From NCBI RefSeq assembly GCF_029227855.1, contig NZ_CP074358.1: a DNA stretch of 64,000 nucleotides, one strand, 5' to 3'. Below, one piece after another: positions 1-62,869 of the stretch. The notes under the pieces were generated by a model that saw only the letters and a program-made list of their open reading frames with translations, was not told the DNA's origin and did no database searches. This DNA is from Escherichia coli. GTDB lineage: Bacteria > Pseudomonadota > Gammaproteobacteria > Enterobacterales > Enterobacteriaceae. The translations under genes were made by a program, and so were the position numbers. Position 1 is the stretch's first letter; every line of letters starts with the position of its first letter.

Positions 1-2
1 GA

Positions 3-170
3 CGCGGGAAAGTACTTGTACTCAGGAAGGGAGATATCGAAATCCCTTCAGATCTTGCCGGGGTTCTCTATACCGAGCTTGATGAGCATGGTGGATGGAA
101 ACGCAAACTGCTGAGTGAGCTTGCGTATGCCGGTGTTCCTTTTGACAAGGATAAAGCATTAAGCGCCTGA
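3..170 (+). CDS. 3' end of an unidentified gene (55 codons in window, stop TGA 168-170)
   Basis: Open frame 3 entering from upstream of the window; ends just before a hairpin shared with the convergent gene; no motif recognised. Confidence 0.3.
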   Translation, partial: RGKVLVLRKGDIEIPSDLAGVLYTELDEHGGWKRKLLSELAYAGVPFDKDKALSA

Positions 171-185
171 TCTCCTTCATTTAGT

Positions 186-217
186 AAGAAAAAGGCCGCT
201 AAGCGGCCTTAATTTTT
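186..217. terminator. Bidirectional rho-independent terminator between convergent genes
   Basis: ggccgc-taa-gcggcc hairpin flanked by an A-run upstream and a T-run downstream (aaaaaggccgctaagcggccttaattttt). Confidence 0.6.
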
Positions 218-219
218 GG

Positions 220-2445
220 TCAGTCGTCATTTTCCAGCGCTGTTTTGAGCGCTTCCTGCTCCGGAGTCAGCTCGTTGCCGGACAGCATAACCTTCAACTT
301 CTCTTCGACTGCTGGCCAGTCATCAAAGAACGGACTGACCTGGTCACGCGCAATCCGGCGATATGCCCCTCGGTGGGAGCTGAAGACACTGGTCTGTAAT
401 CGTATCAACAGGTTAACAAGGCCTTCATCAGTGGTAGTAACTTCTCTGACCCATTGCTTCACGGTTTCACCTGAACTCATGTCTCTCCAGGCGTAGAGAT
501 ACCCGAGAAGAGACTTGCGCAGGAGAAGCTGTTGCTGAAGTTCTGGTTGATTCATACGTTCCGCAAACCTGTCACGCAACCGTTCCGTAATATCGCGACT
601 GAAAAGAGCATCTGAAGGCGAAGGTACTGCATTCTGAGCAAGTCCATGTTCCCAGATAAGATCCCGCATAAAATCGGCTATCCAGAACGGCGAAGCACCC
701 GTAACGATCAGTTTTTCCATAAGCGTGATCGTTCTGGTCTCATCAATATCCTGCATATGCTTCAGCAGATGCCGTACAACCTCATTAATGGCCATTTCAC
801 GCAGGGAAAACCATGGGTTACGGATACTGAAGCGAGTGCTCACCTCATCGGTGTGCTCGAAGAAAAAATGAACCAGTCCTGCGCACTCTTCGAAATTACG
901 TTCTCTTATCAGGCCTGGAGTCAGTCTGCTCAGTATATGTTCAAACCAGGTTCCGGACAGACTGCCCACACTGTTGATTTTTGAGAGCAGCAATTCAGAA
1001 AGCTGCTGCTGTTTTTCCGATACGCCAGCCTGTTCAAAAAGCTGTCTGAAGAATTCAGGTGGCAGAACATTCTGTGGTGAGGAGAAGGCAAAATAATATC
1101 GCCAGTGCGTCAGGCTGCTGAGTCGTTTACCGGTCGTCTGGATATGACGAAAATCCTCACTGACGGGCTCAAAAAGATTCAGATATTCATCATTATGTCC
1201 ACTGATACCTGGGATCCAGTCTGCAAGTGTCAGAAACGAGTCTGCATTTGATGCCCTGAACGTCTTCATACATCTGATAAGCCCCTCCCGGAAGTCTGCT
1301 TTCTCTCCGTCAGAAAGCATACCCTGACCGGTTTCAATCACGGACCGTTCTGTCAGGTAATGCTCTGTCCAGTCATACAGAGCCGGGTTTGTCACCCGTA
1401 TAAGCTGAAGCAGGCACAAATCAGGGAAATAAACAAAATCCCGCATCCCCGGATAAAGAAAAATCAGGGAATTAATGGCCTGATGGATTTCCCGTGGCGT
1501 CGAAAGTGCGGCACCATAGGTATCAGTCACCGCGATGAGATCCCTTACCATTCCAGAGTCTGGCGGTTGATTATTAATTTGCTGATATAGAGCCTCAGCC
1601 CGCTGGCGAAATTCATTACGTAAATCAAAGGCTTCAGGTCGGGGTAATTTAAAACTAAGCTGAATGATTTTCTGGAGATAACGGCTGCCATCTTCGATAT
1701 TCAGCGCATGTTCAACGGCATGAGTGATAATCTGCCTGTCATAACAGAGAATATGGGTAAAGCGGGGCAGATCGGCTACTGCACGCACAAGCCTGAACAC
1801 TTCCGCCACCTGGGATGGCTCCAGTCGGTCCAGATCATCCATGACAACAATGAACTTCAGATCCAGACTCACCAGTTGTCCTGCAATTTCAGCCCGAAGC
1901 TTTGTCGTGGTTTTCTGATCAACAGCCAGACGGCTGTCTGAAAATACCTTTATTCCGCCTGCTATCCAGTTAATAATGCTGGAAAACTGTCCGATATATT
2001 GAACCAGTGGAAGGACGCGCGATGAAGTATCCTGAGCATACTCAATCACTTTTTGAGCTTCCGGTGACAACAGATATTTACGCCAGAGCTTTTTGAAGCC
2101 CTTCGGGGGATAGCGTATTTCCATTTCCTGCTGGATAACCGTGGCAACCGGAAGAAAGAGCGCTTCAACCGGACTGCCGCCACTCAGCCAGGGAGAAATA
2201 TGCAGCACATGTGTGTGAGCATCTTTTTTCAGGGCAAGGTTTCTCAGGATCAGATTAAGGAGGCTTGTTTTACCCGATCCCCATGCACCTTCTATTCCGA
2301 CAACATTTGAAGCCTCCAGAGGAAGAGTAAGGATGGAACGGGATATATTTTCTGCGATATTACCGAAACCGTATCGATCCTCAGGTACATCTTCAACTGC
2401 CGCATCAAGCCCTTTCTGGTTCCACAGCTGCCTCAGTATCTTCAT
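220..2445 (-). CDS. pifA: KAP-family P-loop NTPase, 741 aa; probable PifA (phage T7 exclusion / abortive infection protein of F-like plasmids)
   Basis: Walker A GAWGSGKTS near N-terminus, Walker B-like hhhhDDLDR, size typical of KAP NTPases; PifA is a founding member of the KAP family; start 1 nt after upstream gene stop (TAATATG). Confidence 0.7.
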   Translation of the reverse strand: MKILRQLWNQKGLDAAVEDVPEDRYGFGNIAENISRSILTLPLEASNVVGIEGAWGSGKTSLLNLILRNLALKKDAHTHVLHISPWLSGGSPVEALFLPVATVIQQEMEIRYPPKGFKKLWRKYLLSPEAQKVIEYAQDTSSRVLPLVQYIGQFSSIINWIAGGIKVFSDSRLAVDQKTTTKLRAEIAGQLVSLDLKFIVVMDDLDRLEPSQVAEVFRLVRAVADLPRFTHILCYDRQIITHAVEHALNIEDGSRYLQKIIQLSFKLPRPEAFDLRNEFRQRAEALYQQINNQPPDSGMVRDLIAVTDTYGAALSTPREIHQAINSLIFLYPGMRDFVYFPDLCLLQLIRVTNPALYDWTEHYLTERSVIETGQGMLSDGEKADFREGLIRCMKTFRASNADSFLTLADWIPGISGHNDEYLNLFEPVSEDFRHIQTTGKRLSSLTHWRYYFAFSSPQNVLPPEFFRQLFEQAGVSEKQQQLSELLLSKINSVGSLSGTWFEHILSRLTPGLIRERNFEECAGLVHFFFEHTDEVSTRFSIRNPWFSLREMAINEVVRHLLKHMQDIDETRTITLMEKLIVTGASPFWIADFMRDLIWEHGLAQNAVPSPSDALFSRDITERLRDRFAERMNQPELQQQLLLRKSLLGYLYAWRDMSSGETVKQWVREVTTTDEGLVNLLIRLQTSVFSSHRGAYRRIARDQVSPFFDDWPAVEEKLKVMLSGNELTPEQEALKTALENDD

Positions 2446-2446
2446 A

Positions 2447-3538
2447 TTACAGATCTCCGTACAGGCAGCGCAGCCCGGTCAGGGCCTCCGCCAGCGGGCC
2501 TTCTTGACACCGCGTGGCGAGCTCCCGGACCAGCGTCTCAAAGGCCTCCGCCGGCATAAAAATCCGCAGGCCGTCTATCCCGAAGAAGCCCTCCGGCGTG
2601 ACGTTTCCGGGCGGGGAGAACATCACTCGCTCCCCCTGGTGACCGTGCGTCAGGGCTTCCGGATGCCGGGCATACAGCGTGAACAGGCCCAGCAGTTCGG
2701 ATAACGCTTCCCAGCCGTACGGCACCACGAAGTCCTGGCCGGTGATCAGCAGGTGCAGACGGGGTGTGGTGTACCAGGCCCCCGGGCGTTCTCCGGGGTG
2801 CTGGCCGTCAACGCGGATCTCCAGGCGCAGCGTGCCGGCCTCAATGGTTTCCGTGACGGCAGAAATAACCGGGCGCAGCTCCTGTGCCAGCGTTCTTGCC
2901 TGTTCTGTGTTCCAGTCCAGGCCGCGCAGCATCAACGGGAAAACAGCTTTCAGCCGCGGCAGGGTGAAGATTTCTGCCAGCACCGCGTCCGGCACCTCCG
3001 CCAGGCCAAAACAGTCGCTCTCGAGCGGACGCAGGAGGTGTTCGGCATACATCTGATCCACCACGGGGCGCAGCGCTGCCCGGAAGGCTTCAAACTCTTC
3101 CGTCCAGTTTTTCCCGGCCAGGCGGAAAATCCCCTTCAGGTAGTGACCGTCCACAGGGCGATCGTGCTCCACCTGCCAGGCCAGCAGGTTGCCAGTGATG
3201 TCCAGCAGCGTGTCCAGGGCCGGGAGTGTGGCCAGCCTATTATGCCCGCGCAGGAAGGCCTCCCTGACGTGAACCAGGACAAAGCGCAGTTCGTCGCGGG
3301 AGAGCGCTGACGTGCCGAAGGTCTGGCCCAGAATGATATGCCGGTACAGCTGCCGGACCGTGGCCTCCGGATCGGCAATGAGCTGAAAATACCCGTCACC
3401 GGGCGCGACCGTTTTCAGGCCGTCATCGAGGAAGCGTTCGGCTAGGGCGTTGACCGAAGTATTTTCCCGACCGGCACGCGTTTTCAGCGCCTCGATAAGT
3501 TTTTTGTGAAAACGCAGGTTAAGCTGGCTTAGCATCAT
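2447..3538 (-). CDS. pifC: 363 aa protein with N-terminal ribbon-helix-helix/Arc-like motif; probable PifC (RepC) autoregulator of the pif operon
   Basis: N-terminus LNLRFHKKLIEALKTRAGRENTSVNALAERFLDDGL resembles RHH DNA-binding domain; ~40 kDa; immediately upstream of and coupled to the KAP NTPase gene. Confidence 0.55.
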   Translation of the reverse strand: MMLSQLNLRFHKKLIEALKTRAGRENTSVNALAERFLDDGLKTVAPGDGYFQLIADPEATVRQLYRHIILGQTFGTSALSRDELRFVLVHVREAFLRGHNRLATLPALDTLLDITGNLLAWQVEHDRPVDGHYLKGIFRLAGKNWTEEFEAFRAALRPVVDQMYAEHLLRPLESDCFGLAEVPDAVLAEIFTLPRLKAVFPLMLRGLDWNTEQARTLAQELRPVISAVTETIEAGTLRLEIRVDGQHPGERPGAWYTTPRLHLLITGQDFVVPYGWEALSELLGLFTLYARHPEALTHGHQGERVMFSPPGNVTPEGFFGIDGLRIFMPAEAFETLVRELATRCQEGPLAEALTGLRCLYGDL

Positions 3539-3565
3539 CGATCCTTTAATGTTTGTTTTGTTCTT

Positions 3566-3582
3566 AATGCTAACCTAGCATT
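3566..3582. promoter_or_regulatory. Perfect palindrome aatgcta-acc-tagcatt in AT-rich region upstream of pifC; candidate operator (pifO-like)
   Basis: Inverted repeat read directly from sequence ~35 bp upstream of the pifC start on the - strand. Confidence 0.35.
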
Positions 3583-4220
3583 TTATTATTAGCTATTAAT
3601 CAGTTTTTTAGTTTTTGAAAATTGTGATGCTTCTAAAATTACTAAAATTGAGGATTTTAATGCTACAACAATGCCTGCCTCTTCTTATTTCTCCGGAGAT
3701 CCGAAAACCCCAAGTTCAGGATCTTCCTCTCCCCCCACACAACGCCACCTCCTGTAAGCACAATATGTGGTGCCGGATTCAGCTACTGATGACACTATAT
3801 GTTGTGTCATCTCCCTGACCTGTGATGCGTCGCGCAGGGGCGGAAAACAGCGATATGATGATTTCCTCAGCGTGGTACACTTCCGGAAACCCGTCAATAA
3901 CAGAAAAATCGGATCTGCCTGAAATGGGCATCCGGTAATTTAATGGCGTGGTTATATGCCTGCTTATTATCTGACAGGTGATGATTTATTTAGGGGAAAA
4001 TAATTCATGCTGACAGAGTGTTGTGCTGCCATGCGTAATAACTCTGAGCGACTGTTGCTTCCGGTATCAGTTGAGTGAGGATTTTCAGACCACCACGTTT
4101 TACTGACCAGTAAAAATTTTTTTTGCCCGCAAGGCTGACAAGTGACTTCTTTTAGAATTTCGGCATCCACAACCAATGGCAGGAAGCCCGATGCAAAAAT
4201 TTTTAAGGAGAGCTCTTTTA

Positions 4221-4460: not shown

Positions 4461-4742
4461 CTGGTTTATTGCAACTGAAGGTGTGAAGGTGGTGAAAGAT
4501 AGTGCCAGCCTGTGGCCGCAGATCATCACGGCGGTTTTGTCTGCCGGTACTGCATTTGGTGGTGTGTGGTACGGGCAGTGGCGGATAACACAGCGAGAGG
4601 AGGAAGCTGCAACAGCGAAGCTGGTCAGCGAACGTCTCTTTATTGCCACGGAGCTGGTTTTTCTGCTGGAGAGGTTTGCGCAGCGTTGTGCTCCAGCAGC
4701 AACAGCAACTGTGGAGCACGATCAGGATGGCAGAGGAGAAGC
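4453..4742 (+). pseudogene. Membrane-protein gene truncated by the IS3 insertion (about 96 native codons retained)
   Basis: Strong RBS aaaggaaaaaacATG; hydrophobic segment LWPQIITAVLSAGTAFGGVWYG; reading frame runs into the IS3 left inverted repeat and stops inside it. Confidence 0.4.
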
Positions 4743-4798
4743 TGATCTTACCCAGCAATAGTGGACACGCGGCTAAGTGAGTAAACTCTCAGTCAGAG

Positions 4799-5107
4799 GT
4801 GACTCACATGACAAAAACAGTATCAACCAGTAAAAAACCCCGTAAACAGCATTCGCCTGAATTTCGCAGTGAAGCCCTGAAGCTTGCTGAACGCATCGGT
4901 GTTACTGCCGCAGCCCGTGAACTCAGCCTGTATGAATCACAACTCTACAACTGGCGCAGTAAACAGCAAAATCAGCAGACGTCTTCTGAACGTGAACTGG
5001 AGATGTCTACCGAGATTGCACGTCTCAAACGCCAGCTGGCAGAACGGGATGAAGAGCTGGCTATCCTCCAAAAGGCCGCGACATACTTCGCGAAGCGCCT
5101 GAAATGA
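4799..5107 (+). CDS. IS3 OrfA (transposase N-terminal HTH part)
   Basis: 102 aa, helix-turn-helix and leucine-zipper-like C-terminus ([19 protein letters not shown]); inside the IS3 ends. Confidence 0.9.
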
Positions 5108-5970
5108 AGTATGTCTTTATTGAAAAACATCAGGCTGAGTTCAGCATCAAAGCAATGTGCCGCGTGCTCCGGGTGGCCCGCAGCGGCTGGTATACGTGGT
5201 GTCAGCGGCGGACAAGGATAAGCACGCGTCAGCAGTTCCGCCAACACTGCGACAGCGTTGTCCTCGCGGCTTTTACCCGGTCAAAACAGCGTTACGGTGC
5301 CCCACGCCTGACGGATGAACTGCGTGCTCAGGGTTACCCCTTTAACGTAAAAACCGTGGCGGCAAGCCTGCGCCGTCAGGGACTGAGGGCAAAGGCCTCC
5401 CGGAAGTTCAGCCCGGTCAGCTACCGCGCACACGGCCTGCCTGTGTCAGAAAATCTGTTGGAGCAGGATTTTTACGCCAGTGGCCCGAACCAGAAGTGGG
5501 CAGGAGACATCACGTACTTACGTACAGATGAAGGCTGGCTGTATCTGGCAGTGGTCATTGACCTGTGGTCACGTGCCGTTATTGGCTGGTCAATGTCGCC
5601 ACGCATGACGGCGCAACTGGCCTGCGATGCCCTGCAGATGGCGCTGTGGCGGCGTAAGAGGCCCCGGAACGTTATCGTTCACACGGACCGTGGAGGCCAG
5701 TACTGTTCAGCAGATTATCAGGCGCAACTGAAGCGGCATAATCTGCGTGGAAGTATGAGCGCAAAAGGTTGCTGCTACGATAATGCCTGCGTGGAAAGCT
5801 TCTTTCATTCGCTGAAAGTGGAATGTATCCATGGAGAACACTTTATCAGCCGGGAAATAATGCGGGCAACGGTGTTTAATTATATCGAATGTGATTACAA
5901 TCGGTGGCGGCGGCACAGTTGGTGTGGCGGCCTCAGTCCGGAACAATTTGAAAACAAGAACCTCGCTTAG
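5104..5970 (+). CDS. IS3 OrfB (transposase catalytic DDE part; expressed as OrfAB fusion by -1 frameshift)
   Basis: 288 aa with DDE/rve integrase core (WAGDITYL..., HTDRGGQY..., E in SFFHSLKVE). Confidence 0.9.
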
Positions 5971-6223
5971 GCCTGTGTCCATATTACGTGGGTAGGATCA
6001 GTTTGCATAAAAACGCAGCTATGTTGGGAGTAAAAGCACTGCGGTTATCACGAGAACTGAGAATGTTATGTGGCCTCCCTCTGCACGGCCTTTCCGATAC
6101 ACTATCGCCAACGAGGTTGGTATTGTTGAAAGCCAGAGGTAAAACACTCCAAAAGGAGTACGAAATGGTAAAGAAGTCTAAAAAGACCGAGCAAGAGATT
6201 GAGGATTTCATAAAGGGGACATC

Positions 6224-7015
6224 ATGAGTGGCCCACAATTGCTTTCCCTGCCTGGTTCTTTTTTAACGCCTCCGGCAACATTACCTGTTGCCATTGATTA
6301 CCCGGCTGCGCTGGCACTACGTCAGATGGCACTTGTGCAGGGCGAATTACCAAAATATCTGTTGGCGCCGGAGATCAGCGCCCTGCTCCGCTATGTACCG
6401 GATCTGCACCGCAAAATGTTGCTGGCCACCCTGTGGAACACGGGCGCACGTATAAACGAAGCGCTGGCGCTGACGCGGGGAGATTTTTCACTGGCGCCGC
6501 CATATCCGTTCGTACAGCTGGCCACGCTCAAACAACGGACTGAAAAAGCGACCAGAACGGCAGGCCGTGTCCCTGCTGGCAGTCAGGTGCATCGCCTGGT
6601 TCCCCTGTCCGATACACAATACGTCAGCCAACTGCAGATGATGGTGGCCACGCTGAAAATCCCACTGGAGCGCAGAAACAAACGAACCGGAAGAATGGAG
6701 AAGGCGCGCATCTGGGAAATCACCGACCGCACAGTTCGCACCTGGCTGAATGAAGCTGTAGAGGCCGCTGCGGCCGACGGCGTGACGTTCTCTGTTCCGG
6801 TTACCCCACATACTTTCCGCCATTCCTACGCGATGCATATGCTGTATGCTGGTATTCCGCTGAAGGTGCTGCAGAGCCTGATGGGGCACAAGTCGATTAG
6901 TTCGACAGATGTGTACACGAAGGTGTTTGCGCTGGATGTGGCTGCACGGCACCGGGTGCAGTTTTCGATGCCTGAGTCCGATGCTGTCACAATGCTGAAA
7001 AACAGACACGCATAA
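6224..7015 (+). CDS. resD: Tyrosine site-specific recombinase, ResD-like plasmid multimer resolvase
   Basis: C-terminal catalytic region with HTFRHSYAMHM...LMGHKSISSTDVYTKV (R..H..R..Y tyrosine recombinase signature). Confidence 0.8.
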   Translation: MSGPQLLSLPGSFLTPPATLPVAIDYPAALALRQMALVQGELPKYLLAPEISALLRYVPDLHRKMLLATLWNTGARINEALALTRGDFSLAPPYPFVQLATLKQRTEKATRTAGRVPAGSQVHRLVPLSDTQYVSQLQMMVATLKIPLERRNKRTGRMEKARIWEITDRTVRTWLNEAVEAAAADGVTFSVPVTPHTFRHSYAMHMLYAGIPLKVLQSLMGHKSISSTDVYTKVFALDVAARHRVQFSMPESDAVTMLKNRHA

Positions 7016-17625: not shown

Positions 17626-17853
17626 TCTTTAAAAATCAGGATTTATTTCAGGCTCCGGCAATACGCATTTATGTGTTCTGTCAGTCATCCGGCTGGCAGG
17701 TAATGAGAACGCAGGAACAGAAGGAGGAAAACACCGGAGAACGTCAGACGCAGATATGAAAAAAGCAGGTCAGGGACCTGCTTAATCCACACCGCAGAGA
17801 CTGCACGAACAGTCTTTACGGTTTCATTAATTAACGTCATAAGAGGCTAAATT

Positions 17854-18084
17854 ATGACAGTAAGTATTGTTTCACCTTCCGCAGCGGCTGTAAAGCCCCG
17901 CCGTCATCCCCGTTGCAGACGCGAAGACATCCCCGCGCCGGAAATTGACCCCGTGCTGAAAGCCTTCGGGCGACACATTGCCCGGAGTTTTCACCGGGGG
18001 CGTGGTGTACACATCCCCGCCATGAAAAACACGGCCTTCGGGCAGGTGCTCCGCACACTCGAACTGAAACGCGCTTTTAACTGA
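17854..18084 (+). CDS. Small basic hypothetical protein (76 aa)
   Basis: First ORF after repeat copy A; RBS agagg about 10 nt upstream. Confidence 0.35.
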   Translation: MTVSIVSPSAAAVKPRRHPRCRREDIPAPEIDPVLKAFGRHIARSFHRGRGVHIPAMKNTAFGQVLRTLELKRAFN

Positions 18085-25056: not shown

Positions 25057-25249
25057 TGCGGCAACAATCACACGGATTTCCCGTGAACGGTCTGAATGAG
25101 CGGATTATTTTCAGGGAAAGTGAGTGTGGTCAGCGTGCAGGTATATGGGCTATGATGTGCCCGGCGCTTGAGGCTTTCTGCCTCATGACGTGAAGGTGGT
25201 TTGTTGCCGTGTTGTGTGGCAGAAAGAAGATAGCCCCGTAGTAAGTTAA

Positions 25250-25320
25250 TTTTCATTAACCACCACGAGGCATCCCTATGTCTAGTCCACATCAGGATAG
25301 CCTCTTACCGCGCTTTGCGC
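25250..25320 (-). ncRNA. sok: Candidate Sok-like antisense RNA of the hok/mok locus (approximate coordinates)
   Basis: Inferred from hok/sok architecture; region antisense to the mok translation-initiation region. Confidence 0.35.
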
Positions 25321-25490
25321 AAGGAGAAGAAGGCCATGAAACTACCACGAAGTTCCCTTGTCTGGTGTGTGTTGATCGTGTGTCTCACACTGTTGATATT
25401 CACTTATCTGACACGAAAATCGCTGTGCGAGATTCGTTACAGAGACGGACACAGGGAGGTGGCGGCTTTCATGGCTTACGAATCCGGTAA
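25278..25490 (+). CDS. mok: Mok-like overlapping reading frame (modulator of hok translation)
   Basis: 70-codon ORF overlapping hok in another frame, as in hok/sok loci. Confidence 0.5.
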
Positions 25491-29247: not shown

Positions 29248-29354
29248 AAGAAATTTGACTTCGTTCAAATATCAGAGTTTTTATGATTTAAAAAGGTGAC
29301 AGTACGAAAGATAATTAGTATATTAATTACGTGGTTAATGCCACGTTAAAATTT

Positions 29355-29435
29355 GAATTTGAAAATCGCCGATGCAGGGAGTTCTCTCCTCCCTGCATCG
29401 ACTGTCCATAGAATCCTTTGTGAGGAGGTTCCTAT
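29355..29435 (-). ncRNA. finP: FinP antisense RNA (approximate), complementary to the traJ leader
   Basis: 12-bp perfect hairpin cgatgcagggag-ttctctc-ctccctgcatcg at 29370-29400 in the traJ 5' UTR; architecture of FinOP systems. Confidence 0.5.
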
Positions 29436-30123
29436 GTATCCGATGGATCGTATTCAACAAAAACATGCTCGTCAAATAGATCTGCTGGAAAATCTGACGG
29501 CAGTTATTCAGGATTATCCAAATCCAGCCTGTATCAGGGACGAAACTGGAAAATTTATTTTTTGCAATACGCTGTTTCATGAGTCATTTCTTACACAAGA
29601 TCAAAGTGCTGAAAAATGGCTTCTGTCGCAGAGAGATTTTTGTGAATTGATCTCTGTCACAGAGATGGAAGCATACAGGAATGAGCATACGCATCTTAAT
29701 CTTGTAGAGGATGTTTTTATTCAGAACAGATTCTGGACAATATCTGTCCAGTCATTTCTTAATGGACACAGAAATATCATTCTGTGGCAATTTTATGATG
29801 CTGCTCATGTTCGTCATAAAGACAGTTATAATCAAAAAACGATTGTCAGTGATGATATCAGAAATATAATCAGAAGAATGAGTGATGATTCTTCTGTATC
29901 ATCATATGTAAATGATGTCTTTTACTTATATAGCACCGGAATCAGTCATAATGCTATAGCAAGAATATTAAACATATCCATCTCCACATCAAAGAAACAC
30001 GCGTCTCTGATATGCGACTACTTCTCTGTTTCTAATAAAGATGAGTTAATCATCTTACTCTACAATAAAAAGTTTATTCATTATTTGTACGAGAAGGCTA
30101 TGTGTATCATAAATACGCGTTAA
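29434..30123 (+). CDS. traJ: TraJ transfer activator (229 aa)
   Basis: ATG 29434 with gaggagg RBS; AT-rich gene; position between traM and traY. Confidence 0.85.
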   Translation: MYPMDRIQQKHARQIDLLENLTAVIQDYPNPACIRDETGKFIFCNTLFHESFLTQDQSAEKWLLSQRDFCELISVTEMEAYRNEHTHLNLVEDVFIQNRFWTISVQSFLNGHRNIILWQFYDAAHVRHKDSYNQKTIVSDDIRNIIRRMSDDSSVSSYVNDVFYLYSTGISHNAIARILNISISTSKKHASLICDYFSVSNKDELIILLYNKKFIHYLYEKAMCIINTR

Positions 30124-41395: not shown

Positions 41396-43200
41396 AACGT
41401 ATTTTACCTCTGATACTGGCTCTGGTTGCCGGCATGGCACAGGCTGACAGCAACAGTGATTACCGGGCCGGCTCTGATTTTGCTCACCAGATCAAAGGAC
41501 AGGGAAGCAGCAGTATTCAGGGCTTTAAGCCACAGGAGAGTATCCCCGGCTATAACGCGAATCCGGACGAGACAAAATATTACGGTGGCGTGACTGCCGG
41601 CGGGGATGGCGGCCTGAAAAATGACGGCACCACGGAATGGGCGACCGGTGAAACCGGAAAAACCATCACAGAGTCATTCATGAACAAGCCGAAAGACATT
41701 CTTTCACCGGATGCACCGTTTATCCAGACCGGCAGGGATGTGGTGAACCGGGCTGACAGCATTGTGGGAAACACCGGGCAGCAGTGCAGTGCGCAGGAGA
41801 TTAGCCGGAGTGAATACACGAATTACACCTGTGAGCGGGATTTACAGGTGGAGCAGTACTGCACACGAACTGCCCGTATGGAGCTGCAGGGGAGTACCAC
41901 ATGGGAAACCCGGACGCTGGAGTATGAAATGAGTCAGCTACCTGCACGTGAAGTGAATGGTCAGTATGTTGTCTCCATTACCTCTCCCGTTACCGGTGAA
42001 ATTGTCGATGCGCATTACAGCTGGAGTCGTACTTACCTACAAAAGAGTGTACCTATGACAATTACAGTACTGGGAACACCACTGAGCTGGAATGCCAAAT
42101 ACTCAGCAGATGCCTCATTTACACCAGTACAGAAAACACTGACTGCCGGTGTGGCTTTTACGTCATCTCACCCCGTCCGGGTCGGGAATACAAAATTCAG
42201 ACGTCATACGGCAATGAAGCTGCGTCTGGTTGTCAGGGTAAAAAAAGCCTCGTACACCCCGTATGTTGTCTGGTCTGAAAGCTGCCCGTTCAGCAAGGAG
42301 CTGGGGAAACTGACAAAAACAGAATGTACGGAGGCTGGCGGGAACAGGACGCTGGTGAAAGACGGTCAGTCATACAGTATGTACCAGAGCTGCTGGGCAT
42401 ACCGGGACACGTATGTCACACAGTCAGCAGACAAGGGAACCTGTCAGACCTACACCGACAATCCAGCCTGTACCCTGGTGTCACACCAGTGCGCCTTTTA
42501 CTCCGAAGAAGGTGCCTGTCTGCATGAATATGCCACGTACTCCTGTGAGTCAAAAACATCCGGGAAAGTGATGGTCTGCGGGGGAGACGTCTTCTGTCTC
42601 GATGGCGAATGCGATAAGGCTCAGAGCGGGAAGAGTAATGATTTTGCCGAAGCAGTTTCTCAGCTGGCAGCACTGGCCGCTGCAGGTAAGGATGTTGCGG
42701 CGCTGAACGGGGTGGATGTCCGTGCTTTCACCGGTCAGGCGAAATTTTGTAAGAAGGCTGCAGCCGGATACAGCAACTGCTGTAAGGACAGCGGCTGGGG
42801 ACAGGATATCGGGCTGGCCAAATGCAGCAGTGATGAAAAAGCCCTGGCTAAAGCAAAATCAAACAAACTGACCGTCAGTGTCGGAGAGTTCTGTTCGAAG
42901 AAAGTGCTGGGTGTCTGTCTGGAGAAAAAACGCAGCTACTGTCAGTTTGATTCGAAGCTGGCGCAGATAGTCCAGCAGCAGGGGCGCAACGGTCAGCTGA
43001 GTATCAGTTTTGGCAGTGCGAAGCATCCTGACTGTCGGGGGATTACGGTTGATGAGCTGCAGAAAATTCAGTTCGACAGACTGGATTTCACTAACTTCTA
43101 CGAAGACCTGATGAATAACCAGAAAATCCCGGACAGTGGTGTTCTGACGCAGAAAGTGAAAGAGCAGATTGCTGACCAGCTGAAACAGGCAGGACAGTAA
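41392..43200 (+). CDS. traN: TraN mating-pair stabilisation outer-membrane protein
   Basis: 602 aa, signal peptide, Cys-rich C-terminal half. Confidence 0.95.
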   Translation: MKRILPLILALVAGMAQADSNSDYRAGSDFAHQIKGQGSSSIQGFKPQESIPGYNANPDETKYYGGVTAGGDGGLKNDGTTEWATGETGKTITESFMNKPKDILSPDAPFIQTGRDVVNRADSIVGNTGQQCSAQEISRSEYTNYTCERDLQVEQYCTRTARMELQGSTTWETRTLEYEMSQLPAREVNGQYVVSITSPVTGEIVDAHYSWSRTYLQKSVPMTITVLGTPLSWNAKYSADASFTPVQKTLTAGVAFTSSHPVRVGNTKFRRHTAMKLRLVVRVKKASYTPYVVWSESCPFSKELGKLTKTECTEAGGNRTLVKDGQSYSMYQSCWAYRDTYVTQSADKGTCQTYTDNPACTLVSHQCAFYSEEGACLHEYATYSCESKTSGKVMVCGGDVFCLDGECDKAQSGKSNDFAEAVSQLAALAAAGKDVAALNGVDVRAFTGQAKFCKKAAAGYSNCCKDSGWGQDIGLAKCSSDEKALAKAKSNKLTVSVGEFCSKKVLGVCLEKKRSYCQFDSKLAQIVQQQGRNGQLSISFGSAKHPDCRGITVDELQKIQFDRLDFTNFYEDLMNNQKIPDSGVLTQKVKEQIADQLKQAGQ

Positions 43201-43223
43201 GGTAGGGAAAATAACCGGGGAAA

Positions 43224-43484
43224 ATGATGAAAGTCATATTCACGTCGAACCGTTTTATTGATTTTCTTATCCGGCTTTTGATTACAGCGATTGTCATTTC
43301 CCCAGTAATTATCTGGTCGTGGGATACGGTAAAAGAAACCACTGCAGGTGAGATACTTGCTGCTGCTTTCGTTATTTTTTACTCCGGTGTGCTCCTGTTT
43401 ATTCTGTATTTTTGTTTTTCTGCCCTGACTGACCTGCAGAAACCTGATGAAAGAAAAAGTGATGAAAGGAATGAAGATGAATAA
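43224..43484 (+). CDS. trbE: TrbE
   Basis: 86 aa membrane protein; F order. Confidence 0.75.
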   Translation: MMKVIFTSNRFIDFLIRLLITAIVISPVIIWSWDTVKETTAGEILAAAFVIFYSGVLLFILYFCFSALTDLQKPDERKSDERNEDE

Positions 43485-44220
43485 AGCATTACTGCCGCTG
43501 TTACTCTGCTGCTTTATTTTTCCGGCGTCAGGAAAAGATGCAGGCTGGCAGTGGTATAACGAGAAAATAAATCCGAAGGAAAAAGAAAATAAACCAGTAC
43601 CTGCAGCCCCCCGTCAGGAGCCGGACATTATGCAGAAACTGGCCGCACTGCAGACGGCAACAAAGCGGGCGCTGTACGAAGCTATTCTGTATCCCGGCGT
43701 GGATAATTTTGTGAAATATTTCCGGCTGCAGAATTACTGGACTCAGCAGGCCGGGTTTTTCACCATGAGCGCCAAAAAAGCCATGCTGGCGCATCCCGAA
43801 CTGGACTATAACCTGCAGTACAGCCATTACAACGGCACGGTCCGGAACCAGCTGGCGGCAGACCAGGTGCAGCAGCGACAGGCCATTGCGAAACTGGCTG
43901 AACACTACGGCATCATGTTCTTTTACCGGGGGCAGGACCCCATCGACGGGCAGCTGGCGCAGGTCATTAATGGCTTCAGGGATACCTATGGTCTGAGTGT
44001 TATTCCCGTTTCCGTGGATGGCGTGATTAATCCGCTGTTGCCGGATTCCCGGACTGACCAGGGGCAGGCGCAGCGCCTCGGCGTGAAATATTTCCCGGCC
44101 ATGATGCTGGTTGACCCGAAACAGGGCAGTGTTCGTCCGTTATCATACGGTTTTATTTCGCAGGACGACCTGGCAAAACAATTCCTGAACGTTTCTGAAG
44201 ATTTTAAACCCAATTTTTAA
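43477..44220 (+). CDS. traF: TraF (thioredoxin-fold pilus assembly protein), 247 aa
   Basis: Start moved to MNKALLPLLLCCFIFPASG signal peptide. Confidence 0.9.
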   Translation: MNKALLPLLLCCFIFPASGKDAGWQWYNEKINPKEKENKPVPAAPRQEPDIMQKLAALQTATKRALYEAILYPGVDNFVKYFRLQNYWTQQAGFFTMSAKKAMLAHPELDYNLQYSHYNGTVRNQLAADQVQQRQAIAKLAEHYGIMFFYRGQDPIDGQLAQVINGFRDTYGLSVIPVSVDGVINPLLPDSRTDQGQAQRLGVKYFPAMMLVDPKQGSVRPLSYGFISQDDLAKQFLNVSEDFKPNF

Positions 44221-44235
44221 TCGCGGATTTGATTT

Positions 44236-44583
44236 ATGAGTGAAGATTATTTGAAAATGTTTACAGGTGTTGTTCTGTTAATATTTGTCATTATTGCCGG
44301 TTATTTCTTTTCTGAGCGTAATGACAGGAAAATGTTTCTCCTGAGCTCACTGGTTTTCCTTGTTATTAATATCGCGTGTTTATATGTGCTGACTGCCAGT
44401 CTCTGGTTTCTGTGTGGTGCAATTATGAATCAGGGCGCAGCAATGGTTGTTCCAATGGTTATTGGCTCATTACCGAACGTTACGAGCTTCGACGGGTTCA
44501 GAAGAATATTTATCTGTATTATGTTGTCATCAGTATGGTCCGGAGTGATGTGGTTTTTTATAAGGGGGCTTATGACAGGCTAA
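44236..44583 (+). CDS. trbA: TrbA
   Basis: 115 aa polytopic membrane protein; F order. Confidence 0.75.
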   Translation: MSEDYLKMFTGVVLLIFVIIAGYFFSERNDRKMFLLSSLVFLVINIACLYVLTASLWFLCGAIMNQGAAMVVPMVIGSLPNVTSFDGFRRIFICIMLSSVWSGVMWFFIRGLMTG

Positions 44584-44701
44584 GTCATATAAAACGGTAA
44601 TAAAAACCATACAAAATAATGAGGTTGATCTGATTAATATCACACAAACGCGAATATTACAGACATAAATACTCTCATGTAAATAATAACCGGAGTTTAA
44701 C

Positions 44702-44986
44702 ATGATAAGTAAACGTAGATTCTCTTTACCCCGGCTTGATATTACGGGAATGTGGGTATTTTCCCTGGGTGTCTGGTTTCATATCGTCGCCCGTCTTGTT
44801 TACAGCAAACCCTGGATGGCTTTTTTTCTGGCGGAGTTGATTGCGGCCATCCTTGTGCTGTTCGGCGCATACCAGGTGCTGGATGCATGGATTGCCCGTG
44901 TCAGCCGGGAAGAGCGTGAGGCACTGGAAGCCAGGCAACAGGCCATGATGGAAGGGCAGCAGGAGGGCAGACATGTCTCTCATTAA
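44702..44986 (+). CDS. traQ: TraQ pilin chaperone
   Basis: 94 aa, TM segment; F order. Confidence 0.85.
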   Translation: MISKRRFSLPRLDITGMWVFSLGVWFHIVARLVYSKPWMAFFLAELIAAILVLFGAYQVLDAWIARVSREEREALEARQQAMMEGQQEGRHVSH

Positions 44987-45518
44987 ATCACTGTTGTTCA
45001 CCCTGTTGCTGGCAGCCGCTGCCGTGCAGGCCTCCACCCGGGATGAAATTGAACGACTCTGGAATCCGCAGGGCATGGCCGCGCAGCCTGCACAACCGGC
45101 AGCAGGCACGTCAGCCAGGACAGAAAAGCCAGCCCCCCGCTGGTTCCGCCTCAGCAACGGCAGGCAGGTTAACCTGGCCGACTGGAAGGTGGTGCTGTTT
45201 ATGCAGGGGCATTGCCCTTACTGTCACCAGTTTGACCCGGTACTGAAACAGCTGGCACAGCAGTACGGCTTTTTCGTTTTTCCCTACACCCTGGATGGTC
45301 AGGGGGATACCGCCTTTCCGGAGGCATTGCCGGTGCCACCGGACGTGATGCAGACCTTCTTCCCGAATATCCCAGTGGCCACACCGACCACCTTCCTGGT
45401 CAACGTCAACACGCTTGAGGCATTACCGCTTTTACAGGGGGCAACGGATGCTGCCGGTTTTATGGCGCGGATGGATACCGTTCTGCAGATGTACGGAGGG
45501 AAAAAAGGTGCGAAATAA
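44973..45518 (+). CDS. trbB: TrbB thioredoxin-like disulfide isomerase
   Basis: CPYC active-site motif; signal peptide. Confidence 0.9.
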   Translation: MSLIKSLLFTLLLAAAAVQASTRDEIERLWNPQGMAAQPAQPAAGTSARTEKPAPRWFRLSNGRQVNLADWKVVLFMQGHCPYCHQFDPVLKQLAQQYGFFVFPYTLDGQGDTAFPEALPVPPDVMQTFFPNIPVATPTTFLVNVNTLEALPLLQGATDAAGFMARMDTVLQMYGGKKGAK

Positions 45519-45810
45519 GCAGGTGGTGTTACTCATTGCCGGAATATCCGGCATCGCGACGGGAATAATCGTCAGCCTGAATATCCCCTTTATCCATCAG
45601 GGGCTTTTTTATCCCGCCAGCCCTGTAGAAATTGTCGTTTCGCTGTGCCTTACCTTTTCTGTTTCTGTTGTGTTTTTTGTGGGGGCAATTGTGGGATGGA
45701 TTTCGGTGTCTGAAATATATTACAGCCGCAGGACTGGACGGAAATATCGGGATATTCCTGCTGAAATGTCGTATGCGCCGGGAGAACAAATTAAGGGAGG
45801 GCAAGAATGA
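45508..45810 (+). CDS. trbJ: TrbJ (about 100 aa, GTG start overlapping trbB end)
   Basis: Small membrane protein between trbB and traH; start uncertain. Confidence 0.55.
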   Translation: MRNKQVVLLIAGISGIATGIIVSLNIPFIHQGLFYPASPVEIVVSLCLTFSVSVVFFVGAIVGWISVSEIYYSRRTGRKYRDIPAEMSYAPGEQIKGGQE

Positions 45811-47183
45811 TGCCACGCATTAAACCTCTTCTGGTTCTTTGTGCTGCTTTACTGACGGTCACACCCGCAGCGTCAGCGGATGTGAACAGCGACATGAATC
45901 AGTTCTTTAACAAGCTGGGCTTCGCCTCCAATACCACACAGCCGGGCGTCTGGCAGGGGCAGGCCGCCGGTTATGCTTACGGTGGCTCCCTGTATGCCCG
46001 TACTCAGGTCAAAAATGTTCAGCTGATTTCCATGACGCTGCCGGATATCAATGCCGGATGTGGCGGCATCGACGCCTATCTCGGCTCGTTCAGTTTTATT
46101 AATGGCGAGCAGCTGCAGCGTTTTGTTAAGCAGATTATGAGCAATGCTGCCGGTTACTTTTTTGACCTTGCCCTGCAGACAACGGTGCCGGAAATCAAAA
46201 CCGCAAAAGACTTCCTGCAGAAAATGGCAAGCGACATTAACAGTATGAACCTCAGTTCCTGCCAGGCTGCACAGGGGATTATCGGCGGGCTTTTTCCCCG
46301 GACGCAGGTGTCCCAGCAGAAAGTCTGTCAGGACATTGCCGGTGAGAGCAATATTTTTGCTGACTGGGCGGCTTCCCGGCAGGGATGTACCGTTGGCGGG
46401 AAATCTGACAGTGTCAGGGATAAAGCCAGCGACAAGGATAAGGAGCGGGTGACCAAAAACATCAACATCATGTGGAATGCGCTTTCCAAAAACAGAATGT
46501 TTGACGGCAACAAAGAGCTGAAAGAATTTGTGATGACGCTGACCGGCTCACTGGTGTTTGGTCCCAACGGCGAAATCACACCGCTGTCAGCCAGAACCAC
46601 TGACCGCTCAATTATCCGGGCCATGATGGAAGGCGGCACAGCAAAAATTTATCACTGCAACGATTCTGATAAATGCCTGAAAGTGGTGGCAGAGACACCG
46701 GTGACCATCAGCCGGGATAATGCACTGAAGTCTCAGATTACTAAACTTCTGGCCAGCATTCAGAACAAGGCGGTCAGTGACACGCCTCTGGATGACAAGG
46801 AAAAAGGCTTTATTTCCAGTACCACCATCCCCGTCTTCAAATACCTGGTTGACCCGCAGATGCTCGGTGTTTCCAACAGTATGATTTACCAGCTGACGGA
46901 CTATATCGGTTACGACATCCTGCTGCAGTACATTCAGGAGCTGATACAGCAGGCCCGGGCGATGGTGGCCACAGGAAATTATGACGAAGCAGTTATCGAA
47001 CATATTAACGACAACATGAATGATGCCACCCGGCAGATTGCGGCGTTTCAGTCACAGGTGCAGGTACAGCAGGATGCGCTGCTGGTTGTCGATCGTCAGA
47101 TGAGCTACATGCGTCAGCAGCTTTCCGCCCGCATGCTCAGTCGTTACCAGAACAACTATCACTTCGGAGGGAGCACGCTGTGA
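45807..47183 (+). CDS. traH: TraH
   Basis: 458 aa, signal peptide; F order. Confidence 0.95.
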   Translation: MMPRIKPLLVLCAALLTVTPAASADVNSDMNQFFNKLGFASNTTQPGVWQGQAAGYAYGGSLYARTQVKNVQLISMTLPDINAGCGGIDAYLGSFSFINGEQLQRFVKQIMSNAAGYFFDLALQTTVPEIKTAKDFLQKMASDINSMNLSSCQAAQGIIGGLFPRTQVSQQKVCQDIAGESNIFADWAASRQGCTVGGKSDSVRDKASDKDKERVTKNINIMWNALSKNRMFDGNKELKEFVMTLTGSLVFGPNGEITPLSARTTDRSIIRAMMEGGTAKIYHCNDSDKCLKVVAETPVTISRDNALKSQITKLLASIQNKAVSDTPLDDKEKGFISSTTIPVFKYLVDPQMLGVSNSMIYQLTDYIGYDILLQYIQELIQQARAMVATGNYDEAVIEHINDNMNDATRQIAAFQSQVQVQQDALLVVDRQMSYMRQQLSARMLSRYQNNYHFGGSTL

Positions 47184-60376: not shown

Positions 60377-61233
60377 AAAAAAGCCTCCATCAGAGAGAGG
60401 AGGCAGGGAAATAAGGCTTAAAAGGAAATAACTTCCGTACCCGAAAGGAAGCCAGTCCACTGAATTATTTACCACAATAATACTGACGACTAAAAGGGAG
60501 GGGCAGAAAAATGAATGGATTCAGAAACAGTTCACGGAACGGTCAGGTCTGGCGCTGGCAGCGTGCCGGAAGCCGGGCCGTTATTCTGGAGGTCAGTGGA
60601 CGCTGGATGGATGCGGCAGAAGCATGGCGACGGGCTGCCGGTGTTGCGCCCCGGACAGACTGGCGGCAGTTTGCCCGAAAAAGGGCTGCACACTGCCACC
60701 GGCGCTGCCGGGGAAGGGTGTAACGAAAAAAGCAGCCTTCATTACTCCTGGAGTCAGAAGGCTGAATAATGCATGAGATTTACTTTTTTAATCTCCGGTC
60801 GGGTAGTATGACCGGACAACTCTGAGTAGCACAGAGTTTTTTTCCGTATTAAGTCGTGATTTTATATTTTGTGATTTATTTCACAAAATAAGGTGTTATT
60901 CAATGTGTGCTGCAATATTCAGGATGCCTGAAATACAGGTGCCATTTATTTGATATGGAGAATAACATGAGGGAATATATTCCACTGGTATTATTTATCT
61001 TTTCATAGCCGGTATTGTCTGCAGATATTTATGGGCAGGTTGTTCGTGTACTGGGCCAGCAGGAAAGTCTGTGCAGAAGCTTACGGTTTGAATAAGTTGA
61101 ACCCCATAAGACTCTGATTAATATAATTTGTGGCACACAGATACTTGCGGGAAAAGTGTTTCGCACTGAATCTTAACTGGAAATGTAAACTATTTTTAAC
61201 ACCCCCAAAATCCTTTTGGGGAACAACTCATGC

Positions 61234-61551: not shown

Positions 61552-61888
61552 ACCTTATTGGGTGTATTAAAAACAGTAGGCTGCCAAAGTCTTAAACAAG
61601 TTTCAATTCTCCATGACTGCTCAACATCAGACAGAGGGAATTCCCATTCTGGACCAGCGGGAGCATACGAACAATAATTTACGGTTTCGCGCTATAGCTG
61701 GCTCAAGTTAGGTTGGACCCTGAATCTCCAGACAACCAATATCTGATCGCGCCAGTGGTGGCAGTTATTAAGCAACAGGGAATGTAGTATTATCGCGGCG
61801 GGTGTCTGAGCCTTTCTGGTTCAGGCAAGACGCAGGTACCAGAAATGCGAAGACCCCACTTGTTAATCCATTAACTCGTGAGGTCTGC

Positions 61889-62095
61889 ATGAAGTACCTT
61901 AACACTACTGATTGTAGCCTCTTCCTTGCAGAGAGGTCAAAGTTTATGACGAAATATGCCCTTATCGGGTTGCTCGCCGTGTGCGCCACGGTGTTGTGTT
62001 TTTCACTGATATTCAGGGAACGGTTATGTGAGCTGAATATTCACAGAGGAAATACAGTGGTGCAGGTAACTCTGGCCTACGAAGCACGGAAGTAA
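61889..62095 (+). CDS. srnB: SrnB/Hok-family membrane toxin (68-aa frame; Hok-like core from internal Met at 61946)
   Basis: MKYLNTTDCSLFLAERSKFMTKYALIGLLAVCATVLCFSLIFRERLCELNIHRGNTVVQVTLAYEARK; hairpin cggggac-ggaa-gtccccg downstream at ~62104-62128. Confidence 0.85.
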   Translation: MKYLNTTDCSLFLAERSKFMTKYALIGLLAVCATVLCFSLIFRERLCELNIHRGNTVVQVTLAYEARK

Positions 62096-62714: not shown

Positions 62715-62810
62715 TAAGGTGGCAGGGAACTGGTTCTGATGTGGATTTACAGGAGCCAGAAAAGTGAAAACCCCGATAATCTTCTCTAACTTTGGCGAGT
62801 CCAGAAAGAT
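62715..62810 (-). ncRNA. copA: CopA-like antisense RNA (approximate), targeting the repA1 leader (CopT)
   Basis: Located between copB and tap; sense strand carries tttggcg loop motif as in CopT; coordinates inferred. Confidence 0.4.
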
Positions 62811-62869
62811 TACCGGGGCTAACAAGAAACTGCATAGAAGCTGTTGCTCTATGCGGGGAGTATAGTTAT

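What the first reader, a model, noticed from the sequence alone, without database searches (positions are those of the whole stretch)
220..3538. KAP NTPase two-gene operon consistent with the pifC-pifA phage T7 exclusion system; no pifB-like gene follows
A 363-aa protein with an RHH-like N-terminus is followed, 1 nt later, by a 741-aa KAP-family P-loop NTPase (Walker A GAWGSGKTS). This matches the F plasmid pif operon, a known abortive-infection defence. In F the operon continues with pifB; here a bidirectional terminator and a convergent gene follow immediately. I did consider whether this is an undescribed defence pair, but the architecture fits Pif.
Basis: partly seen in the sequence, partly recalled or inferred. 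Interest (0 to 1): 0.4.

Follow-up and report, generated by a model that had tools for sequence, protein, structure and literature searches.

The report
F-plasmid pifC–pifA phage-exclusion operon
This is the long-known pifC–pifA operon of the E. coli F plasmid, which makes cells abort phage T7 infection and blocks rival plasmids; it is present here almost letter for letter, so it is ordinary.

Summary
On the minus strand, a 363-codon ORF (2447-3538) lies 1 nt upstream of a 741-codon KAP P-loop NTPase ORF (220-2445). A hairpin follows at 192-210, then the 3' end of a convergent gene.

PifC is 362/362 identical to F-plasmid PifC. PifA is 740/741 identical to F PifA (E530D only). Window 1-3716 differs from F at 2 bases, and the 180 nt upstream of pifC are identical in F, R64 and pAA.

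The one implied oddity, "no pifB follows", is not a difference from F. In the F reference sequence pifA is followed by the same terminator and the same convergent gene. That gene encodes a TIR-like protein matching the PADLOC candidate PDC-S35. Homologous loci on other plasmids are also two-gene units.

Verdict: already known, low interest.

One side observation may deserve follow-up. PifC stays 87-93% identical in plasmids whose downstream NTPase is only 36-41% identical. In some plasmids the NTPase is replaced by an unrelated 289-aa candidate defence protein. This suggests cargo swapping behind a constant regulator.

The parts
220..2445 (-). pifA: a 741-aa KAP-family P-loop NTPase, the phage T7 exclusion (abortive infection) protein
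   Evidence: 740/741 identical to F PifA WP_000698737.1, differing only by E530D. PADLOC PifA 2.9e-290. Pfam KAP_NTPase residues 28-331, E 6e-43. Walker A at 53-60 and Walker B at 198-204, with no TM-grade hydrophobic segment (maximum KD19 1.27).
2447..3535 (-). pifC: a 362-aa autorepressor of the pif operon and fertility-inhibition factor. The ORF extends one codon further, to an ATG at 3538.
   Evidence: 362/362 identical to F PifC WP_000952217.1. Annotated 'transcriptional repressor PifC' in F and many other plasmids. Fertility-inhibition role from PMC5696584.
3539..3716 (-). pifC promoter/operator region, including the AAGGA Shine-Dalgarno at 3542-3546
   Evidence: Identical base for base in the window, F, R64 and pAA. 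There are no mismatches to F below 3717 apart from two in pifA. No strong sigma-70 consensus was found; the promoter position is inferred.
3567..3581 (.). Palindrome ATGCTA-GGT-TAGCAT, the candidate PifC operator (pifO), about 30 nt upstream of the start codon
   Evidence: Found. Conserved in the K. variicola, K. pneumoniae and E. coli p147 pifC loci although their flanking sequence diverges, and absent upstream of the PifC-like gene that has non-KAP cargo. Its function as an operator is inferred and was not tested.
3657..3665 (.). Second copy of the half-site TAGCATTAA (coding strand), 93 nt upstream of the first
   Evidence: Direct repeat D5. Conserved in L004 and L005.
192..210 (.). Bidirectional intrinsic terminator shared by pifA and the convergent gene
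   Evidence: 8-bp stem with 6 G-C pairs, a 3-nt loop and T-runs on both strands. Identical to F.
1..170 (+). 3' end (last 55 codons plus the stop codon) of a convergent gene for a 299-aa TIR-like protein. It is a neighbour, not part of the pif operon.
   Evidence: Identical to F WP_000963206.1. The full-length F protein hits Pfam CAP12-PCTIR_TIR at 7.9e-37 and PADLOC PDC-S35 at 2.3e-65.

Best explanation
The locus is the pifC-pifA operon of the F plasmid, carried here on an IncF-type conjugative plasmid.

Shown by sequence identity: both proteins, the proximal 180 nt of upstream DNA and the terminator are the F versions.

Established in the literature for those same proteins:
- PifC represses its own operon.
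- PifC also inhibits conjugation of co-resident IncP and IncW plasmids by acting on their type IV coupling protein.
- PifA is a membrane-associated KAP P-loop NTPase without transmembrane helices.
- When phage T7 expresses gp1.2 or the capsid protein gp10, PifA-containing cells suffer membrane depolarisation and nucleotide leakage, and the infection aborts.
- T3 and other gp1.2 variants escape.

Inferred here:
- PifC binds through an Arc-like N-terminus to the conserved ATGCTA-GGT-TAGCAT palindrome just upstream of its start codon.
- pifA is translationally coupled to pifC (1-nt gap, GGAG 9 nt upstream).
- PifA acts as a STAND/AAA+-like sensor-switch, in which the all-helical C-terminal two-thirds senses the phage proteins and the NTPase drives assembly at the membrane.
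For: Identity to F. Family models: PADLOC PifA 2.9e-290 and Pfam KAP_NTPase. Annotation as 'phage T7 exclusion protein' and 'transcriptional repressor PifC' in hundreds of plasmids.

Same gene order, terminator and convergent neighbour in F, R64 and pAA.

Literature: PifA and T7 gp1.2/gp10 (PMC8594841; PMC3276506; PMC11990801). Membrane depolarisation, nucleotide leakage and lack of TM helices (PMC13001434). PifC fertility inhibition through coupling proteins, with F and R64 pifC (PMC5696584).

No TM segment in PifA. The AF2 model has an alpha/beta P-loop core at 47-264 and a helical C-terminal region at 270-682. Its nearest solved folds are the RADAR RdrA ATPase, Orc/Cdc6 and NB-ARC NTPases. 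The palindrome is conserved across divergent loci.
Against: No phenotype can be tested here. The E530D difference from F PifA is untested, although that alignment column varies among homologues (E/D/S).

The promoter scan finds no good sigma-70 match, so the promoter and operator assignment is only an inference.

The RHH assignment of PifC is weak. The fold matches for PifA have low TM-scores (about 0.2) and rest on a pLDDT 75.7 model built from 8 sequences.

Sequence upstream of 3717 differs from F and an IS3 lies 1.2 kb upstream. This could in principle alter expression.
Confidence: 0.95

Rival explanations
1. The operon is mainly a plasmid-versus-plasmid weapon. On this reading PifC's fertility inhibition of rival conjugative plasmids is the primary function, and T7 exclusion by PifA is a narrow side-effect rather than its selected function.
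For: PifC alone inhibits IncP and IncW conjugation by about 4 logs (PMC5696584). Among the well over 100 phages of the two BASEL collections, only four (T7, Bas65, Bas102 and Bas105) were inhibited by PifA, and the authors suggest it may have another primary role (PMC8594841; PMC11990801; see also PMC12632615). PifC is much more conserved than PifA across plasmids.
Against: PifA-like KAP NTPases sit among other defence genes (CBASS-like pair, Ppl, RES, TIR-like) in every locus examined. KAP NTPases protect against phage in other bacteria (PMC12632615). Rapid divergence of PifA is what an immune sensor would show. The two roles are not mutually exclusive.
Confidence: 0.2
2. This is a new, undescribed two-gene defence pair that only resembles Pif in architecture.
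For: None beyond the architecture. NCBIfam has no equivalog model that names either protein.
Against: Identity to the F proteins is 100% and 99.9%, and the PADLOC PifA model scores 2.9e-290.
Confidence: 0.01
3. The operon is a silent or decaying copy, for example because of the mosaic junction and IS3 upstream.
For: Thirty mismatches to F cluster at 3717-3874, and homology to F ends at 3889. IS3 lies at 4743-6000 without a target-site duplication. In the spread-sampled PifC hits, many Klebsiella plasmids, which dominate the roughly 600 plasmids with 90-95%-identical PifA, carry an N-terminally truncated pifC, so decay of this locus does occur.
Against: Both ORFs are intact, with 1 nonsynonymous change in 1103 codons. 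The 180 nt upstream of pifC and the terminator are identical to F, R64 and pAA. The IS3 is 1.2 kb away from the pifC start.
Confidence: 0.04

Closest known systems
pifC-pifA operon of E. coli plasmid F (NC_002483, 42445-45760)
   Same: PifC is 362/362 identical and PifA 740/741. The 1-nt gap, terminator, convergent TIR-like neighbour and 180-nt promoter-proximal region are the same.
   Different: PifA carries E530D plus one synonymous change. There are 30 substitutions at 180-340 nt upstream of pifC, and homology to F is lost beyond window 3889. In F that region leads to ccdAB. Here it leads to two small ORFs, an IS3 and a resD-like integrase.
pif locus of IncI1 plasmid R64 (NC_005014)
   Same: 98.9% DNA identity over window 1-3985. 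The PifA protein accession is the same as in F, and the convergent neighbour is the same.
   Different: The plasmid backbone differs (IncI1, MOBP). R64 pifC is not listed in the PLSDB gene table for that record.
Divergent pifC + KAP NTPase pairs on Klebsiella, E. coli, Rahnella and Serratia plasmids (L004, L005, L007-L010)
   Same: All are two-gene units with a 1-2-nt gap (L005 abuts) and a PifC-like protein followed by a 728-754-aa KAP NTPase. The palindrome upstream of pifC is kept in L004, L005 and L007, the three of these loci that were aligned; L008-L010 were not examined.
   Different: The NTPase is only 36-43% identical to PifA, while PifC ranges from 37% to 93%. Phage specificity is unknown.
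KAP-family P-loop NTPases (Pfam PF07693) and RADAR RdrA / STAND-type defence NTPases
   Same: P-loop core with a helical C-terminal region. RdrA, Orc/Cdc6 and NB-ARC are the nearest solved folds.
   Different: PifA has no transmembrane helices (PMC13001434). No recognisable effector domain was found. TM-scores to solved structures are only about 0.2.

Membership tests
F-plasmid Pif (phage T7 exclusion) system | PifA protein: full-length orthologue of F PifA | tested here: met
   740/741 identity with no gaps. The PADLOC PifA HMM scores 2.9e-290 over residues 8-740.
F-plasmid Pif (phage T7 exclusion) system | pifC regulator gene immediately upstream in the same operon | tested here: met
   362/362 identity to F PifC, with a 1-nt gap to pifA.
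F-plasmid Pif (phage T7 exclusion) system | Cis-acting control region (pifO/promoter) upstream of pifC | tested here: met
   Window 3539-3716 is identical to F, R64 and pAA. The exact operator is inferred to be the palindrome at 3567-3581. Binding was not tested.
   It is absent here. It is equally absent from the F reference sequence, R64 and pAA, where a convergent gene follows pifA. It is therefore not a defining feature of the sequenced system. The 1980s papers that defined pifB could not be retrieved.
F-plasmid Pif (phage T7 exclusion) system | Abortive infection of T7 triggered by gp1.2 or gp10, with T3 escaping | not testable with these tools
   Literature only.
KAP P-loop NTPases (PF07693) | KAP NTPase domain with Walker A and Walker B motifs | tested here: met
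   Pfam E 6.3e-43 over residues 28-331. GAWGSGKT at 53 and FIVVMDD at 198.
KAP P-loop NTPases (PF07693) | Transmembrane helices associated with the NTPase domain | tested here: not met
   The highest 19-residue Kyte-Doolittle mean is 1.27. This matches the published statement that PifA lacks TM helices (PMC13001434). The AF2 model shows a soluble helical insertion at 92-170 in that position.
Ribbon-helix-helix (Arc/CopG-like) DNA-binding domain, for the PifC N-terminus | N-terminal beta-strand followed by two helices, with sequence similarity to RHH families | tested here: inconclusive
   Pfam DUF6364 at E 0.0015 over residues 2-44. The AF2 monomer has coil at 1-10 and helices at 11-24 and 28-41. 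BLASTP against the Arc sequence (recalled from memory) gives 8/29 identities and E 3e-4. There is no PDB hit by sequence or by fold.
PifC fertility-inhibition factors | Same protein as the pifC shown to inhibit IncP and IncW conjugation | tested here: met
   Identical to F PifC, the protein cloned from pOX38 in PMC5696584. The phenotype is not testable here.

The most novel reading that the evidence does not exclude
PifC may be a constant 'front end' behind which defence cargo is exchanged on IncF and IncI plasmids. PifC stays 87-93% identical in loci whose KAP NTPase is only 36-41% identical to PifA. An 81%-identical PifC is followed, at the same 1-nt spacing, by an unrelated 289-aa PDC-S64-like protein. 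GC3 jumps from 0.76 in pifC to 0.49 in pifA. On this reading PifC's conservation is held by its second job (fertility inhibition and autoregulation), while the downstream immune sensor is swapped by recombination at the gene junction. A weaker speculation is that the historical 'pifB' corresponds to the convergent TIR-like gene.
Probability: 0.3. Interest if true: 0.4.

Novelty: already known. Interest (0 to 1): 0.1.

Why it matters
For the finding itself there is little to add. It re-identifies a textbook abortive-infection operon on an F-like plasmid. About 4.5% of complete E. coli genomes (243 of 5426) carry at least 80% of this block.

The practical value is annotation:
- The 'P-loop NTPase fold protein' here is PifA.
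- The upstream gene is both a repressor and a fertility inhibitor.
- The convergent gene is a TIR-like candidate defence gene (PDC-S35), which makes this corner of F a small defence island.

The side observation of discordant PifC and PifA conservation, if followed up, could offer natural PifA allele series for working out how a KAP NTPase recognises phage proteins. That mechanism is still unknown.

Tried and rejected
Literature on pifB. Four full-text searches and two look-ups by PMC id found nothing usable. Hits were Wolbachia PifA/PifB or anaesthesia 'PIFB', and the 1983-1991 J Bacteriol and MGG papers are not held. What 'pifB' was mapped to therefore remains unresolved. I rely only on the sequenced F record.

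NCBIfam gave no equivalog for either protein, only a weak QatA N-terminal hit at 39 bits against a cut-off of 600.

PDB sequence searches found no relative of PifC or PifA. The 57-aa N-terminal query hit only designed repeat proteins.

Foldseek of the PifC model against the PDB gave nothing significant. The best hits were PUR-alpha repeats at E about 0.1.

The sigma-70 scan found no convincing pifC promoter.

The preprint on plasmid hyper-variability hotspots does not mention PifA, PifC or KAP.

The 'new defence pair' reading was considered and rejected on the identity evidence.
Full report
**Observation**

The window holds two adjacent minus-strand ORFs: 2447-3538 (363 codons) and 220-2445 (741 codons). 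On the coding strand the junction reads GGAGATCTG-TAA-T-ATG. One nucleotide separates the genes, and a GGAG lies 9 nt before the pifA start.

The 741-aa protein has a Pfam KAP_NTPase domain at residues 28-331 (E 6e-43). Its Walker A motif GAWGSGKT is at 53-60 and its Walker B motif FIVVMDD at 198-204.

Downstream, the hairpin AAGGCCGC-TAA-GCGGCCTT at 192-210 scores as a terminator on both strands. A plus-strand reading frame ends at 168-170.

**Identity**

- Against the F plasmid reference (NC_002483), the 741-aa protein is 740/741 identical to the protein annotated at the pifA position. The only difference is E530D.
- The upstream protein is 362/362 identical to PifC, counted from the second ATG.
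- Window 1-3889 aligns without gaps to F 42226-46114 with 32 mismatches. Two are in pifA (one synonymous). None are in pifC, the terminator or the convergent gene's 3' end. Thirty cluster at 3717-3874.
- The PADLOC PifA model scores 2.9e-290.
- The same block is 98.9% identical in the IncI1 plasmid R64.
- At least 80% of the block is present in 289 PLSDB plasmids and in 243 of 5426 complete E. coli genomes. It is often annotated 'phage T7 exclusion protein' and 'transcriptional repressor PifC'.
- No PLSDB plasmid encodes the E530 allele exactly; the best match is 99.9%. That alignment column varies among homologues (E/D/S).

**The 'missing pifB'**

In F itself, pifA (42445-44670, minus strand) is followed 49 nt later by a convergent gene at 41496-42395. 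No co-directional gene is annotated. R64 and pAA show the same arrangement.

Homologous pifC + KAP-NTPase loci on Klebsiella, E. coli and Serratia plasmids are also two-gene units followed by convergent or unrelated genes. Only a Rahnella locus has a co-directional 457-aa ORF, 142 nt after the NTPase, and that ORF has no PADLOC match.

The window therefore does not differ from F in this respect. The papers that defined pifB genetically could not be retrieved. From my own memory, later work by Molineux's group found pifA alone sufficient for exclusion. I could not verify that here.

**Control region**

The 180 nt upstream of pifC are identical in the window, F, R64 and pAA. Beyond that point the four sequences diverge.

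This stretch contains a palindrome ATGCTA-GGT-TAGCAT (3567-3581) about 30 nt upstream of the start codon, and a second TAGCATTAA copy at 3657-3665. The palindrome is retained upstream of pifC in three divergent loci whose flanking sequence differs. It is absent upstream of a PifC-like gene that carries different cargo. I infer that it is the PifC operator (pifO).

The promoter itself could not be placed, because no good sigma-70 match exists. An inverted repeat AGATCC(N16)GGATCT at 3697-3724 is also kept in L004 and L005. Its role is unknown.

**The proteins**

*PifC.* It has no Pfam domain apart from a weak DUF6364 match at residues 2-44 (E 0.0015). A 7-sequence AF2 model (pLDDT 70.9) shows an unstructured stretch at 1-8, then helices at 11-24 and 28-41. 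An all-helical middle region and a small beta-sheet at 227-270 follow. The model has no significant PDB fold match. BLASTP against P22 Arc (sequence recalled from memory) aligns QLNLRF...SVN with pairwise E 3e-4. 'RHH-like' is therefore plausible but not established.

*PifA.* It has no transmembrane-grade segment, in agreement with the literature (PMC13001434). An 8-sequence AF2 model (pLDDT 75.7) gives a P-loop alpha/beta core at 47-264 with a helical insertion at 92-170. An all-helical region follows at 270-682. The nearest solved folds are the RADAR RdrA ATPase, Orc/Cdc6 and plant NB-ARC domains, at low TM-scores. No structure of PifA or a close relative exists in the PDB.

**Mechanism**

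The following is established in the literature for these same proteins.
- T7 is excluded by F through PifA. Sensitivity depends on T7 gp1.2 and on the capsid protein gp10, and T3-type gp1.2 escapes (PMC3276506; PMC8594841; PMC11990801).
- Exclusion involves membrane depolarisation and nucleotide leakage (PMC13001434).
- PifC is the operon's regulator and is also a fertility inhibitor. Cloned pifC from an F derivative reduces IncW (R388) and IncP conjugation. F and R64 as co-resident plasmids cut R388 transfer by about 4 logs, by targeting the type IV coupling protein (PMC5696584).

The following is inferred here.
- PifC binds the palindrome as an operator.
- pifA translation is coupled to pifC.
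- PifA acts as a STAND-like sensor-switch.

How PifA damages the membrane is not known.

**Context**

The window is an IncF-type conjugative plasmid. It carries FinP/traJ at 29.3 kb, a tra operon including a 1756-aa TraI ORF, CopA at 62.8 kb and two sok RNAs.

The pif block is a mosaic insert. Other plasmids such as CP058011 match the window at 99.4% from 3688 onward but lack pifCA. An IS3 at 4743-6000 has no target-site duplication. Relative to CP058011 it replaces 169 bp of a 229-aa hypothetical gene.

**Side observations**

- The convergent neighbour, of which only the last 55 codons lie in the window, encodes a 299-aa protein. It has a CAP12/Pycsar-type TIR domain (Pfam 7.9e-37) and matches the PADLOC candidate system PDC-S35 (2.3e-65).
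- PifC and PifA are conserved discordantly. PifC is 91%, 93% and 87% identical in L004, L005 and L007, while the NTPase is 41%, 37% and 36% identical.
- GC3 is 0.76 in pifC against 0.485 in pifA.
- In plasmids such as CP032991 and CP142931, an 81%-identical PifC is followed 1 nt later (in CP032991) by a 289-aa protein instead of a KAP NTPase. That protein has weak PDC-S64, DUF3644 and HEPN similarity.
- Neighbouring genes in these loci are defence genes: a CBASS-like cyclase with an S-4TM effector, Ppl, RES and AAA ATPases.
- Many Klebsiella plasmids keep a 91% PifA next to a pifC lacking codons 1-60.
- These points suggest recombinational exchange of cargo behind a conserved PifC. I did not find this described, but I did not search exhaustively.

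**Verdict**

The system is already known and the copy here is near-identical to the prototype. Interest is low.

Noticed in passing
window 1-170 (+); full gene in L002:3497-4396 (F plasmid 41496-42395): The gene convergent with pifA encodes a 299-aa protein with a CAP12/Pycsar-type TIR domain (Pfam 7.9e-37). It matches the PADLOC candidate single-gene system PDC-S35 (2.3e-65). It is preceded by an overlapping 96-aa ORF. The pair travels with pifCA in F, R64 and pAA, and the TIR-like gene also follows the NTPase in L012. F thus seems to carry an uncharacterised TIR defence gene back to back with pif.
   Followed up: partly
L004, L005, L007 compared with window 220-3535: PifC is 87-93% identical while the downstream KAP NTPase is only 36-41% identical. 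GC3 is 0.76 in pifC against 0.485 in pifA. This looks like recombinational swapping of the NTPase behind a constant regulator.
   Followed up: partly
L006:4501-6460 (E. coli CP032991) and L011:3501-5460 (CP142931): An 81%-identical PifC homologue is followed, 1 nt later in L006 (in L011 the annotated cargo ORF starts at 4582, within the PifC-homologous stretch), by a 289-aa non-KAP protein with weak PDC-S64, DUF3644 and HEPN similarity. The pair sits between a CBASS-like cyclase with an S-4TM effector and an AAA ATPase. The upstream palindrome seen at pifC is not conserved in L006, the only one of the two aligned.
   Followed up: partly
Klebsiella plasmids, e.g. NZ_CP041374.1 128663-131795 (hits H37, H100): In the spread-sampled hits, many Klebsiella plasmids carry a 91%-identical PifA next to a pifC that lacks the first 60 codons (the putative DNA-binding end) and is left unannotated. 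How pifA is expressed or controlled there is unclear.
   Followed up: no
window 3688-3889: This is a mosaic junction. Identity to F is essentially perfect up to 3716, then 30 mismatches fall in 3717-3874, and homology ends at 3889. Plasmids lacking pifCA (e.g. CP058011) match the window at 99.4% from 3688 onward.
   Followed up: partly
window 4743-6000: A complete IS3 (1258 bp, orfA 4799-5107 and orfB 5104-5970) has no 3-bp target-site duplication (flanks AGC and GTT). Relative to CP058011 it replaces 169 bp of a 229-aa hypothetical gene lying just upstream of a resD-like integrase (6224-7015).
   Followed up: yes
window 3697-3724: An inverted repeat AGATCC(N16)GGATCT lies about 160-190 nt upstream of pifC. 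Its arms are conserved in the K. variicola and K. pneumoniae loci although the spacer differs. Its function is unknown (upstream terminator or protein-binding site).
   Followed up: no
L008:7980-9353 (Rahnella victoriana plasmid): This is the only examined locus where a co-directional ORF follows the KAP NTPase (457 aa, 142-nt gap, no PADLOC hit). It is a possible third gene in that lineage.
   Followed up: no
window 17760-17859, 25162-25338, 29329-29440, 47899-47984, 56574-56650, 60620-60802, 61800-61956, 62762-62852: Rfam gathering-threshold hits typical of an IncF plasmid: FinP and the traJ 5' UTR, CopA, two sok antitoxin RNAs, and antisense RNAs AS-pc01, AS-pc02, AS-traI and AS-traG. All are ordinary backbone features.
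   Followed up: no
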